Below are positions 76-7,934 of a stretch of DNA of 7,934 bases, in pieces. This stretch comes from a virus. Lineage: Monodnaviria; Loebvirae; Hofneiviricota; Faserviricetes; Tubulavirales; Inoviridae. Position 1 is the stretch's first letter, and every line of letters begins with the position of its first letter. The notes beneath the pieces are model-generated. The model saw nothing but the letters and a program-made list of their open reading frames with translations. It had not been told where the DNA came from and did not search any database. The stretch is from IMG/VR virus record IMGVR_UViG_2645727945_000001. One strand, given 5' to 3'. The position numbers and the translations under genes were made by a program.

Positions 76-331
76 ATCAGGACTGATGAAAACCGAAGGC
101 CAGTCATCACCAGAATTGCTGTAACCCATCAATTTCATCAACTGGCCACATCAATGCATGGACGACTCACGCCTTGCGTCGTTCGTCTCGATAGCTGCCC
201 TTTAAAAGCGGCCTGGCAGGAAGCGCGTTGCGCTGTCTCCTGCTGCTCTGTAATTTCTCCCTGGCTTCGGCGGTCAGGCAGCTGCATCACATGAAACATC
301 ATCATGCCGCCTTACATGCCGCGTTGCGGCA

Positions 332-2646
<2,315 letters not shown>

Positions 2647-2657
2647 AAATCACCCTC

Positions 2658-2948
<291 letters not shown>

Positions 2949-2962
2949 TCACCACCTGATTA

Positions 2963-4594
<1,632 letters not shown>

Positions 4595-4598
4595 TTCA

Positions 4599-4769
4599 TC
4601 ACCAGTAAAAACTAAATGGTTTTACAATTCGACGGAAATCCTGATCGGCTTTTTCAAGAATAACTGAAACAACATATTCTTCAATGGTTGTATTTTTATT
4701 GTAAATAATTCTTTCTATCTGCTCGATAGTGTATTCTGGCAATTTAACTTTAAATTCTTGAGTAGACAT
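4599..4769 (-). CDS. Small 56-aa hydrophilic protein with ribbon-helix-helix-like pattern (hypothetical)
   Basis: Hand translation: [56 protein letters not shown]; RBS gagg about 5 nt before ATG; stop 4 nt before the pIII-like start; below the ORF-track length cutoff. Confidence 0.4.
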
Positions 4770-4861
4770 AAAACCTCACAAATTAGATTTAAAGCCAATG
4801 ACGCAACATAACCCACAAAGGGAACCAAACATCATAAAAATAAAATCAAACATAAATATCC

Positions 4862-4887
4862 AAAAAAAGGGCGGAATATCCGCCCTT
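4862..4887 (-). terminator. Rho-independent terminator immediately downstream of the major coat gene
   Basis: On the minus strand: GC-rich 7-bp stem (agggcgg / ccgccct, 5-nt loop) followed by a run of 7 T; located 17 nt after the pVIII-like stop. Confidence 0.65.
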
Positions 4888-4903
4888 CCTCATAAAAAAC
4901 AAC

Positions 4904-5152
4904 TCAGATACTTCTGATGGCTCCCCATACTTTACGAACGCCAGCAAAAGTCAGATAAACTGTAACTCCTGCAACACCGATAGAAAGAATAACAGCAGAA
5001 ACAGAAGACATATCAATGCTGTTAGTCAATGATGAAAAATCGACTGTACCAGCAAAAGACGGAGATACAGCAAGAGCAGAAGCAGCGGAAAAAGATAAAG
5101 CTGCAACTTTCTTATCAACACCCTTAAAAAAATTGGTCATTTTTGCAAACAT
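4904..5152 (-). CDS. Major coat protein (pVIII-like) precursor
   Basis: Start chosen at internal ATG 5152 preceded by RBS aaggag (9-nt spacing); 82 aa: leader MFAKMTNFFKGVDKKVAALSFSAASALAVSPSFA, then approx 48-aa mature part with hydrophobic core and basic C-terminus (GVRKVWGAIRSI). Confidence 0.7.
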   Translation of the reverse strand: MFAKMTNFFKGVDKKVAALSFSAASALAVSPSFAGTVDFSSLTNSIDMSSVSAVILSIGVAGVTVYLTFAGVRKVWGAIRSI

Positions 5153-5154
5153 AA

Positions 5155-5328
5155 TTAAAGTCTCCTTATTAAACTCCAAATTGTGGAAATAATCATGCCA
5201 AGAAAAAAACAAAATACTGGCAGTGAAAATCCCGTTAAAAACGCCGAGGAATAAATCCCCGACACATCAGGTATCCCCACGCAAATAGCATTAATTTGCG
5301 TGGAAACTGAATCCGAATTAACAGACAT
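5155..5328 (-). CDS. Small 57-aa hydrophobic protein (possible pVII/pIX-type minor coat analog)
   Basis: Hand translation: MSVNSDSVSTQINAICVGIPDVSGIYSSAFLTGFSLPVFCFFLGMIISTIWSLIRRL; starts 4 nt after the ssb-like stop and ends 2 nt before the pVIII-like ATG; no clear SD; below ORF-track cutoff. Confidence 0.3.
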   Translation of the reverse strand: MSVNSDSVSTQINAICVGIPDVSGIYSSAFLTGFSLPVFCFFLGMIISTIWSLIRRL

Positions 5329-5332
5329 AAAA

Positions 5333-7089
<1,757 letters not shown>

Positions 7090-7093
7090 TTAC

Positions 7094-7173
7094 CGCATGC
7101 GCGCATCATAATCACATTTAATGTGTGTTGTAAATACGCATGCGCTATGCGGGTGTAAAAAAAATGGAATAAT
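7094..7173. promoter_or_regulatory. Divergent promoter/operator region between rep operon and repressor gene
   Basis: Minus-strand candidate sigma70 promoter: -35 TTTACA (rc of 7129-7134), 18-nt spacer, -10 TATGAT (rc of 7105-7110). Plus-strand candidate extended -10 TGgAATAAT (7165-7173). Palindromes: ATGCGCGCAT (7097-7106), CACAT-tta-ATGTG (7113-7125), CGCATGCG repeated at 7094-7101 and 7137-7144. Confidence 0.35.
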
Positions 7174-7208
7174 CACCTTCTATTGAAAGGACATAGAGGT
7201 AAATTTTG

Positions 7209-7421
7209 ATGAAAAAAGAAACAAAGCGCGGAGACACAACCGTAAGGATTAACGAAAACAGAAAACTGGAGCTAAAACGAAGAGTGCTGGAAATCGGTAA
7301 TAAAACAGGTGAGCTACTAAAACCATCAGAGATAGTAAACCACTTAATAGACAACTACTTAGATGATGCGGTGAAAGATCTAATAAGCAAAGAAGAACTT
7401 AAGAAAAAAAAGGCAATGTGA
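7209..7421 (+). CDS. Arc/Mnt-like ribbon-helix-helix transcriptional repressor (phage repressor candidate)
   Basis: 70 aa from ATG 7209 (ORF track starts at TTG 7206); RBS agaggt 8 nt upstream; TTVRINENRKLELKRRVLEIGNKTGELLKPSEIVNHLIDNYL matches the RHH beta-strand/helix/turn/helix pattern; divergent from the rep operon. Confidence 0.6.
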   Translation: MKKETKRGDTTVRINENRKLELKRRVLEIGNKTGELLKPSEIVNHLIDNYLDDAVKDLISKEELKKKKAM

Positions 7422-7762: not shown

Positions 7763-7903
7763 ATGCACGACATGATTCTGGATTTACTAATGAAATACCT
7801 GATTGCCGGTAGTCTGTTCGGCATGTTTTTGTTCAGCGTCATAACAATAGTGTTGCCAATCGTCCTGAGGGCACACAATAAAATCAACAGAAGCAACGAC
7901 TGA
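7763..7903 (+). CDS. Small 46-aa hydrophobic peptide ORF in the intergenic region (hypothetical)
   Basis: Hand translation: MHDMILDLLMKYLIAGSLFGMFLFSVITIVLPIVLRAHNKINRSND; single predicted TM helix; no convincing SD; below ORF-track cutoff. Confidence 0.2.
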   Translation: MHDMILDLLMKYLIAGSLFGMFLFSVITIVLPIVLRAHNKINRSND

Positions 7904-7910
7904 ATACACA

Positions 7911-7934
7911 ACAGTGCGCACAATGGCGTTATGT
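7911..7934 (+). other. dif-like site, truncated by the window end (XerC-arm-like AGTGCGCACAA, short central region, start of XerD-arm-like TTATGT)
   Basis: 7911-7934 acAGTGCGCACAATGGCGTTATGT; inverted partner of the site at 41-75 (15 of 16 nt complementary in the outer arm plus a perfect 9-nt inner arm). Confidence 0.5.

What the first reader, a model, noticed from the sequence alone, without database searches (positions are those of the whole stretch)
7094..7421. Arc/Mnt-like RHH repressor with back-to-back promoters and nested palindromic operator candidates
The only plus-strand gene encodes a 70-aa protein whose N-terminal 45 residues fit the ribbon-helix-helix pattern (compare Arc: ...SVNSEIYQRVMESF with ...KPSEIVNHLIDNYL). 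Upstream lies a 115-bp region with a perfect 10-bp palindrome ATGCGCGCAT, the inverted repeat CACAT-tta-ATGTG inside the spacer of the predicted rep promoter, and two copies of the palindromic octamer CGCATGCG 43 bp apart. This looks like a lysogeny/replication switch similar in logic to rstR-rstA but built from an RHH repressor.
Basis: partly seen in the sequence, partly recalled or inferred. Interest (0 to 1): 0.5.

Follow-up and report, generated by a model that had tools for sequence, protein, structure and literature searches.

The report
Short RstR-type repressor of E. coli inovirus
The 70-residue gene and the palindromes in front of it are the immunity/replication switch of a filamentous prophage integrated at the E. 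coli dif site, and the protein belongs to the same family as the short RstR repressors of some cholera-toxin phages, so this is a real but essentially known kind of switch.

Summary
Only the pair of CGCATGCG octamers 43 bp apart beats chance (57 of 20,000 shuffles). The 10-bp palindrome and the CACAT/ATGTG repeat are each found in about 16% of shuffles and vary among near-identical relatives.

The window is one 7,934-bp unit of a tandem, dif-integrated E. coli inovirus. The 70-aa ORF is under strong purifying selection and lies divergent from the replication operon in many genera. It is 68-70% identical to genes annotated rstR in V. cholerae pre-CTX/CTX records and in Vibrio phages VAI1/VAI2. 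Its family profile also matches the RstR-calc repressor. It is unrelated to the long helix-turn-helix RstR.

An invariant block, TGTAAATACGCATGCG, joins the -35 of a conserved rep promoter to one box. The other box overlaps that promoter's predicted start site. In distant relatives the box sequence changes together with the protein's N-terminal segment.

A ribbon-helix-helix fold is plausible but unproven: the family aligns to ParG at 75-81% probability, while fold searches found nothing. There is no specific similarity to Arc.

Verdict: a new member of a known kind.

The parts
7209..7421 (+). Gene for the 70-aa short RstR-type repressor (phrog_2503)
   Evidence: ORF. It matches phrog_2503 at 1.5e-27 and has no Pfam hit. 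Against relatives pN is 0.07-0.23 while pS is 0.66-0.93. It is 68-70% identical to annotated rstR genes of V. cholerae and V. anguillarum phages. The family profile matches RstR-calc at 27.4 bits.
7196..7199 (+). Shine-Dalgarno GAGG, 9 nt before the ATG
   Evidence: Read directly from the sequence.
7137..7144 (.). Right operator box CGCATGCG, directly upstream of the rep promoter -35
   Evidence: Exact copy. Ten of 12 loci from several genera have at least 6/8 matches at exactly this alignment column, against about 0.15 expected per region. It is invariant in E. coli-type relatives.
7094..7109 (.). Left operator: CGCATGCG (7094-7101) plus a degenerate tandem box CGCATCAT (7102-7109), overlapping the -10 and predicted start of the rep promoter
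   Evidence: Tandem boxes 8 bp apart are explicit in relatives: L025 has GCATGCgcGCATGC, and L030 has CACATGCA|CGCATGCG.
7129..7134 (-). -35 hexamer TTTACA of the leftward (rep operon) promoter
   Evidence: Promoter scan, 10 of 12 matches. TGTAAA is invariant in all 11 aligned loci.
7105..7110 (-). -10 hexamer TATGAT of the leftward promoter, with an 18-nt spacer
   Evidence: Relatives have TATCAT, TATTAT, TAGTAT or TAATAT at the same columns, so the TA...T positions are kept.
7086..7093 (.). Conserved block ATATTTAC of unknown role, in the predicted 5' leader of the rep transcript; it is the reverse complement of the GTAAATAT-type block on the right
   Evidence: Conserved in most close relatives. 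No function is assigned.
7113..7125 (.). CACAT-tta-ATGTG inverted repeat in the promoter spacer, probably not a functional element
   Evidence: Chance level, in about 16% of shuffles. Its right arm is altered in 6 of 7 near-identical loci and it is absent in other genera.
7165..7173 (+). Candidate extended -10 (TGgAATAAT) of the repressor's own promoter (tentative)
   Evidence: Read from the sequence. Relatives have GATATGA/AATATG-type -10-like sequences at similar columns. The consensus scan did not call it.
6874..7071 (-). First gene of the leftward operon, a 65-aa ORF (phrog_3104), followed by rep
5678..6874 (-). Replication initiator (Rep_trans, RstA-like), the presumed target of repression
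   Evidence: Pfam Rep_trans at 1.9e-21. RefSeq annotation.

Best explanation
The 70-aa protein is the immunity and replication repressor of a dif-integrating E. coli filamentous prophage. It belongs to the short class of RstR repressors found in some CTX and pre-CTX phages.

It most likely binds as dimers to 8-bp palindromic boxes with a CGCATGCG consensus and a GCATGC core. One site (7094-7109) overlaps the -10 and start of the leftward promoter that drives the 65-aa ORF, rep and the downstream genes. The other site (7137-7144) abuts that promoter's -35. The two sites are 43 bp apart, about four helical turns, so they lie on the same face of the DNA. Occupancy would block RNA polymerase, keep the prophage silent and exclude phages carrying the same boxes. 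The right site also lies at or next to the -35 region of the repressor's own promoter, so autoregulation is likely.

DNA is probably read by the conserved N-terminal segment (D9-T-T-V-R-I-N15), acting as the strand of a ribbon-helix-helix-like dimer with an unusually long turn between the two helices.

Shown here: the gene is real, the homology, the synteny, the conserved promoter and boxes, and the co-variation between box and protein.

Inferred: DNA binding, repression, the dimeric state and the fold.
For: 1. Real, constrained gene. Synonymous sites are saturated (pS 0.66-0.93) while pN is 0.07-0.23.

2. Homology. The protein is 68-70% identical to genes annotated rstR in V. cholerae CTX/pre-CTX records and 'RstR-like' in VAI1/VAI2. 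The family profile matches RstR-calc over its full length at 27.4 bits, P about 1e-10. An rstR6-like protein scores 86.7 bits.

3. Function of relatives. In a lux reporter assay the short alleles calc, 5 and 6 lowered expression from their own ig-2 promoters; the effect was about 11-fold for allele 6 (PMC11509585).

4. Synteny. The gene is divergent from the rep gene in every inovirus locus examined. The Rep is either Rep_trans or G2P type.

5. Footprint. TGTAAATACGCATGCG is nearly invariant across Escherichia, Xenorhabdus, Arsenophonus, Gilliamella, Photorhabdus and Vibrio loci, even though synonymous sites are saturated. The predicted promoter TTTACA-18-TAnnnT is conserved.

6. Co-variation. 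Relatives with a different N-terminal segment carry different repeated palindromes in the same arrangement: TTACATGTAA x2, TTTAAAATTTTAAA x3 and TTTCTAAGA x2.

7. Fold. hhalign aligns the family to the whole ParG RHH domain at 81% (single sequence) and 75% (family profile, E 2.5e-5). Six members touch Pfam ParG and one touches the PutA RHH domain. The AF2 domain model has pLDDT 95-98 and shows an extended N-terminus followed by two helices. A natural tandem duplication of the domain exists, P0109.
Against: - There is no direct binding or expression data for this protein.
- No strand pairing formed in the tandem-domain model.
- ParG was chosen after it had appeared among weak hits. Its E-value in the unbiased PDB sequence search is only 0.49.
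- The canonical G-x-S/T/N turn of RHH proteins is replaced by a turn 6 residues longer.
- The repressor's own promoter is not confidently located.
- The left box is only 5/8 in several relatives.
- In the published reporter table, repression by RstR-calc and RstR-5 was weak, about 1.2-1.5-fold against the vector.
Confidence: 0.78

Rival explanations
1. It is the repressor as described, but the fold is not ribbon-helix-helix. It would be a different small helical DNA-binding fold that uses a basic N-terminal arm.
Against: The family aligns with the ParG RHH domain over its full length and in the right register, at 75-81%. The models were built without a dimer partner, which RHH strands need. 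The N-terminal segment co-varies with the box sequence.
Confidence: 0.25
2. The conserved boxes are not this protein's operators. They would be promoter elements, host-factor sites or replication-origin sequences, with the protein acting elsewhere.
For: Half of the invariant block (TGTAAA) is explained by a -35 hexamer. The ATATTTAC block has no assigned role. No binding data exist.
Against: The same boxes accompany the same protein next to unrelated Rep types, Rep_trans and G2P, so they are not Rep origins. The box sequence changes when the protein's N-terminal segment changes, while the layout is kept. CGCATGCG resembles no sigma-70 element.
Confidence: 0.08
3. The protein is mainly an activator or a dual regulator, for example of its own promoter, rather than a repressor of rep.
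For: The right box lies about 40 bp upstream of both predicted start sites, a position typical of activators (inference). The repressor's own -35 is weak.
Against: The left site overlaps the -10 and start of the rep promoter. Homologous short RstR alleles lowered their own ig-2 promoters in reporter assays.
Confidence: 0.1
4. The palindromes are chance features of an AT-rich spacer.
For: The 10-bp palindrome and the 5-3-5 inverted repeat each occur in about 16% of shuffles. With one mismatch allowed, the octamer is not enriched in the window.
Against: A repeated exact palindromic octamer occurred in 57 of 20,000 shuffles. It is conserved at the same columns across genera.
Confidence: 0.03

Closest known systems
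Short RstR alleles of V. cholerae CTX/pre-CTX phages: RstR-calc (59 aa), the rstR of KR063268/GU942563/GQ466608, and the rstR6 type
   Same: Same protein family. Same position, divergent from rstA/rep across an ig-2-type spacer. KR063268 has the same spacer layout, including ATGCGCGCAT, TGTAAATA and CGCATGCG boxes. The short alleles calc, 5 and 6 were reported to repress their own ig-2 promoters, although membership of alleles 5 and 6 themselves was not confirmed here (PMC11509585).
   Different: The host is E. coli. The phage has its own secretin and no RstB. An extra 65-aa ORF precedes rep. Identity to the closest Vibrio allele is 68%, and RstR-calc matches only at profile level. This protein has not been tested experimentally and is annotated as hypothetical.
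Long RstR (El Tor type, 112 aa) of CTXphi
   Same: Same role and same position in the phage genome. It sets allele-specific immunity through ig-2 operators (PMC11509585 introduction).
   Different: The fold is unrelated. It is Pfam HTH_3 at 4.9e-16, and BLASTP finds no alignment with the window protein.
ParG (plasmid TP228 partition protein, PDB 1P94), a ribbon-helix-helix protein
   Same: It is the best remote match. The alignment covers strand, helix A and helix B, with a very similar helix B: DVVNQLVDNWL against EIVNHLIDNYL.
   Different: The family has 6 extra residues in the inter-helix turn. It has no flexible N-terminal tail and no ParF partner. The similarity is below database-wide significance.
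Arc and Mnt repressors of phage P22
   Same: Small phage repressors thought to read palindromic operators with an N-terminal strand (general knowledge).
   Different: No detectable sequence relationship. hhalign against Arc gives 0.6% probability, and there is no Pfam Arc hit.
MetJ and its met boxes
   Same: 8-bp palindromic boxes arranged in tandem with 8-bp periodicity (the MetJ comparison is from general knowledge).
   Different: No sequence relationship was tested or claimed. No co-repressor is implied.

Membership tests
Short RstR-type inovirus repressors (phrog_2503 and relatives) | Sequence homology to proteins named RstR or shown to act as RstR | tested here: met
   68-70% identity to annotated rstR genes. 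Profile scores are 92 bits for KR063268 RstR, 86.7 bits for the rstR6-like protein and 27.4 bits for RstR-calc. phrog_2503 matches at 1.5e-27.
Short RstR-type inovirus repressors (phrog_2503 and relatives) | Gene divergent from the replication gene of a filamentous phage, across a short regulatory spacer | tested here: met
   Seen in the window and in 15 or more related loci.
Short RstR-type inovirus repressors (phrog_2503 and relatives) | Allele-specific operators in the spacer | tested here: met
   This rests on comparative inference only. Repeated palindromic boxes are conserved with the same protein type and replaced when the N-terminal segment differs.
Short RstR-type inovirus repressors (phrog_2503 and relatives) | Represses the cognate rep (rstA) promoter and confers immunity | not testable with these tools
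   Reported for the short alleles calc, 5 and 6 in PMC11509585; of these only calc was confirmed here as a family member. Not known for the E. coli protein.
Ribbon-helix-helix superfamily | Strand-helix-helix topology in about 45 residues | tested here: inconclusive
   AF2 gives an extended N-terminus, an 18-residue helix, a 5-residue loop and a long helix, with pLDDT 95-98 in the well-covered domain. DSSP assigns no strand.
Ribbon-helix-helix superfamily | Dimer with a two-stranded antiparallel ribbon formed by the N-terminal segments | tested here: inconclusive
In the model of the natural tandem protein P0109 the two segments did not pair, but its first half had no alignment coverage.
Ribbon-helix-helix superfamily | Detectable sequence or profile relationship to an established RHH family | tested here: inconclusive
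   ParG aligns at 81% and 75% probability with E about 1e-5 pairwise, over the full domain. Pfam ParG was touched by 6 of 78 members, best E 0.019. The PDB profile search gives ParG E 0.49. CopG scores 2.5% and Arc 0.6%.
Ribbon-helix-helix superfamily | Structural similarity to solved RHH proteins | tested here: not met
Ribbon-helix-helix superfamily | Short G-x-S/T/N turn between helices A and B | tested here: not met
   The turn is 6 residues longer than in ParG. The sequence runs G30-N-K-T-G-E-L-L-K-P-S40, and S40 could cap helix B.
Arc/Mnt family (Pfam Arc) | Match to the Arc family model or to the Arc sequence | tested here: not met
   No Pfam hit. hhalign gives 0.6% probability.
Long RstR / Cro-C1-type HTH repressors | HTH_3-type domain | tested here: not met
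   The window protein has no HTH hit. The El Tor-type RstR in GU942563 is HTH_3 and shows no alignment with it.

The most novel reading that the evidence does not exclude
The short RstR class forms a widespread, previously unclassified branch of ribbon-helix-helix proteins with an extended inter-helix turn. It would include CTX-calc RstR, this E. coli protein and an unannotated ORF in the classical phage If1. Immunity specificity would be set by a few N-terminal strand residues reading 8-bp palindromic boxes. The apparent trend, on very few cases, is Thr-Thr-x-Arg with GCATGC, loss of Arg13 with ACATGT, and Lys-His with AT-rich boxes. That would amount to a simple, rewritable recognition code for inovirus immunity groups.
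Probability: 0.4. Interest if true: 0.45.

Novelty: new member of a known kind. Interest (0 to 1): 0.3.

Why it matters
The result names and assigns a role to a gene that RefSeq calls hypothetical. Matches to the window were found in 105 of 5,426 complete E. coli genomes, and 15 of these carry the whole element, many of them human diarrhoeal isolates.

It shows that 'RstR' covers two unrelated protein folds. The short type, with near-identical operator boxes, is shared between Vibrio, Escherichia and insect or nematode symbionts. This predicts cross-immunity between their filamentous phages.

It also supplies defined operator and promoter coordinates for testing how such prophages are silenced. 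The advance is modest: the switch logic is already known from CTXphi.

Tried and rejected
- Megablast of the whole window against deposited phages found no match.
- Pfam, NCBIfam and PDB sequence searches with the single protein found nothing.
- hhalign against Arc and CopG single sequences gave negligible scores.
- The search for related loci with the deep alignment failed because no stretch was conserved enough.
- The idea that the conserved boxes are the Rep origin or nick site was rejected, because the same boxes occur next to unrelated Rep families.
- I looked for a rightward promoter using the left TTTAC(A/C) as a -35, but no -10 lies at a suitable spacing.
- No CTGT-N8-ACAG (LexA-box) motif is visible in the 137-bp spacer (read).
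- The original RstR-calc paper (PMC94144) and the rstR-4/5 paper (PMC99527) are not held.
- I could not obtain the exact rstR6 or rstR5 sequences, because the primer search of viral contigs found nothing. Their family membership is inferred only from the primer-encoded N-terminus and a 93.5% primer match to a V. cyclitrophicus gene.
- No paper in the library mentions both RstR and ribbon-helix-helix.

Full report
**What the window is**

All large ORFs lie on the minus strand and form a complete inovirus. They encode a secretin (332-1591), Zot/pI (1588-2646), a DUF2523 minor coat protein (2658-2945), a pIII-like protein with a Gly/Ser/Thr linker (2963-4594), a major coat protein (4904-5155), a DNA-binding-type protein (5333-5668), a Rep_trans initiator (5678-6874) and a 65-aa ORF (6874-7071).

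Megablast against complete E. coli genomes found matches in 105 of 5,426 genomes, and 15 of these carry at least 80% of the element. The best match is 99.9% identical and lies beside hipBA. There the element is present in tandem, and copies of the 70-aa gene recur every 7,934 bp. The window is therefore exactly one phage unit.

The two ends carry inverted dif-like half-sites. Joined, they fold into a forked hairpin with dG -41.6 kcal/mol and z -10.8. That is the attP architecture I know from CTXphi (from memory).

**The observation**

Their statistical weight differs.

- The exact palindromic octamer CGCATGCG occurs twice in 7,934 bp, against 0.14 expected, and both copies lie within the 137-bp spacer.
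- A repeated palindromic octamer appeared in only 57 of 20,000 shuffles of the spacer.
- A perfect 10-bp palindrome and a 5-3-5 inverted repeat each appeared in about 16% of shuffles.

**The gene is real and conserved**

The 70-aa product matches phrog_2503, a phage family with no assigned function, at 1.5e-27. Thirty-eight close homologues occur in Escherichia, Salmonella, Gilliamella, Providencia, Xenorhabdus, Arsenophonus and Photorhabdus. A profile search found 80 cluster representatives.

Between the window and relatives, synonymous sites are saturated (pS 0.66-0.93) while pN is 0.07-0.23. The invariant residues include R7, D9, T10, T11 and R13 in the N-terminal segment, and I47, D48 and Y50 in the last helix.

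**Synteny**

In every inovirus locus I could read, the gene lies divergent from the replication gene. This holds whether that gene is Rep_trans or the unrelated G2P/Phage_CRI type. The small gene and its spacer therefore travel as a module independent of the replication system. One short metagenomic contig (L028) was uninformative.

**Link to known repressors**

A tblastn search against deposited phages found 68-70% identity to genes annotated rstR in V. cholerae CTX/pre-CTX records: GQ466608, GQ466611, KR063268 and GU942563. The last is annotated 'RstR-like... repressor of rstA transcription'. The same search hit the 'RstR-like' gene of V. anguillarum phages VAI1 and VAI2.

A 2024 study cloned eight rstR alleles and reported that each lowers expression from its own ig-2 promoter in a lux reporter. 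Three alleles are short: calc at 180 bp, allele 5 at 204 bp and allele 6 at 192 bp (PMC11509585).

I recovered the RstR-calc sequence (59 aa) from viral contigs using that paper's primer. It matches the family profile over its full length at 27.4 bits, P about 1e-10 as a directed test. A V. cyclitrophicus gene matching the rstR6 primer scores 86.7 bits.

The 112-aa El Tor-type RstR in GU942563 is a Pfam HTH_3 protein and shows no alignment with the window protein. 'RstR' is thus a positional and functional name covering two unrelated folds, and the window protein belongs to the short one.

**The regulatory DNA**

Anchoring the spacers of eleven loci on GTAAATA gives an almost gap-free alignment. 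The block TGTAAATACGCATGCG (7129-7144) is nearly invariant, even though synonymous sites in the adjacent gene are saturated.

Its first six bases are the reverse complement of TTTACA. The promoter scan pairs this hexamer, across an 18-nt spacer, with TATGAT at 7110-7105 on the minus strand, for 10 of 12 consensus matches. Relatives have TATCAT, TATTAT, TAGTAT or TAATAT at those columns, so the positions that matter for a -10 are kept. This is the promoter of the 65-aa ORF and rep operon, with a predicted start near 7098.

The right CGCATGCG box abuts its -35. The left box, together with a degenerate tandem copy (CGCATCAT, 7102-7109), overlaps its -10 and start. Ten of 12 loci have at least 6/8 matches to the box at exactly column 7137, against about 0.15 expected per region. 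Extra boxes in relatives fall in phase, 8 bp further on. The V. cholerae pre-CTX spacer has the same layout, including ATGCGCGCAT.

**Co-variation**

Distant family members keep two or three copies of a palindrome 44-65 bp apart in the spacer facing rep. The palindrome differs along with the N-terminal segment:

| Locus | N-terminal segment | Repeated box |
|---|---|---|
| L025 | DTSVRVNE | GCATGC in tandem 8-bp units |
| L024 | RTTMAIT | TGCATGCA |
| L029 | DTTVAIN | TTACATGTAA |
| L035 (rstR6-like) | YTSLRV | ACATGTATACAT (inverted pair, palindrome CATGTATACATG) |
| L027 | KHVAVT | TTTAAAATTTTAAA |
| L033 (RstR-calc) | KHIKDS | TTTCTAAGA |

This is the best available evidence that the protein binds these boxes and that the N-terminal segment takes part in recognition. 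It rests on a handful of cases.

Among seven near-identical E. coli-type loci with identical protein, both octamers are invariant. The only variable bases in 137 bp are 7122-7127, the right arm of CACAT/ATGTG, and 7102, which breaks the 10-bp palindrome. The octamer pair is therefore supported. The 10-bp palindrome is a by-product of two adjacent boxes. The inverted repeat is not a conserved element.

**The fold**

The monomer model (pLDDT 72) and the well-covered domain of a natural tandem-duplicated relative (pLDDT 95-98) agree. Both show an extended N-terminal segment, an 18-residue helix, a 5-residue loop and a long helix, with no helix-turn-helix.

Sequence evidence points weakly but consistently to RHH:
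- Six members touch Pfam ParG and one touches the PutA RHH domain.
- The profile search of PDB lists ParG and TTHA0139 in the expected register at E 0.4-0.5.
- hhalign aligns the family to ParG residues 31-76, which I recall to be its RHH domain, at 81% (single sequence) and 75% (ParG family profile, E 2.5e-5). There is one 6-residue insertion at the inter-helix turn.

ParG was chosen after these hints, so I rate RHH at about 0.7. Arc shows no specific similarity.

**Mechanism proposed**

Dimers bind the left and right sites, which lie four helical turns apart. This occludes the -10/start and -35 of the rep promoter, silences replication and virion genes, and gives box-specific immunity. The right site probably also autoregulates the repressor's own weak promoter.

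The homology, synteny, conservation and co-variation are shown here. Binding, repression and oligomeric state are inferred from homologues and from the anatomy.

**Novelty**

This is a new, uncharacterised E. coli member of a known kind of switch. The modestly new points are two. The short RstR class is probably RHH-like. Nearly the same operator is shared from Vibrio to Escherichia and to insect symbionts.

Noticed in passing
window 7911-7934 joined to 1-72: The window is exactly one 7,934-bp unit of a tandem prophage array. Inverted dif-like half-sites (AGTGCGCACAATGGCGTTATGT and ACATAACGCGTGTCACATTATGCGCACT) flank a GC-rich hairpin and fold into a forked hairpin with dG -41.6 kcal/mol and z -10.8. 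This resembles the CTXphi attP(+) used for XerCD integration.
   Followed up: partly
window 7122-7127 and 7102: Among seven near-identical relatives with identical repressor protein, every substitution in the 137-bp spacer falls in six bases of the rep-promoter spacer next to the -35 (ATGTGT becomes ACACGT, ACACGTA, ATCTGT or ATCTCT), or at 7102. This is a mutational or selective hotspot. It coincides with the position of a third box in other genera and is unexplained.
   Followed up: partly
L032 (Escherichia phage If1, U02303) 1471-1674 and 962-1405: The annotated 'major intergenic region' of the classical phage If1 contains an intact, unannotated 63-67-aa member of this repressor family. An IS200-type Y1 transposase ORF (Pfam Y1_Tnp, 1.2e-27) lies between it and the replication gene, and no GCATGC-type boxes remain nearby.
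   Followed up: partly
window 3334-3553: An 18-bp unit is repeated 12.2 times at 95% identity inside the pIII-like gene. It encodes a (Gly-Ser/Thr-Gly-Thr)n linker, a likely source of length variation between strains.
   Followed up: no
window 7763-7903 (+): An unannotated 46-aa hydrophobic ORF (MHDMILDLLMKYLIAGSLFGMFLFSVITIVLPIVLRAHNKINRSND) lies downstream of the repressor gene, with a terminator-like hairpin at 7804-7823 inside it. Its conservation was not checked.
   Followed up: no
protein P0109: A 142-aa relative is a natural tandem duplication of the whole domain, which fits a protein that works as a dimer. Its genomic context was not examined.
   Followed up: partly
window 7086-7093 and 7130-7136: TATTTAC and GTAAATA are reverse complements, and each sits immediately 5' of a CGCATGCG box on the plus strand. 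The right copy is explained by the -35 of the rep promoter. The left copy, conserved in most relatives, has no assigned role.
   Followed up: partly
window 6960-6967: A third near-copy of the box (CGCATGCA) lies inside the 65-aa ORF, 134 bp left of the left operator. It could be an auxiliary site or chance.
   Followed up: no
E. coli genomes, one search hits H8, H9 and H17-H25: Some strains carry the prophage interrupted by an IS21-family element (ISEc62). Many carry a related phage that shares only positions 127-5334, the structural and secretion genes, with a different replication and regulation module. This indicates exchange of the module studied here.
   Followed up: no
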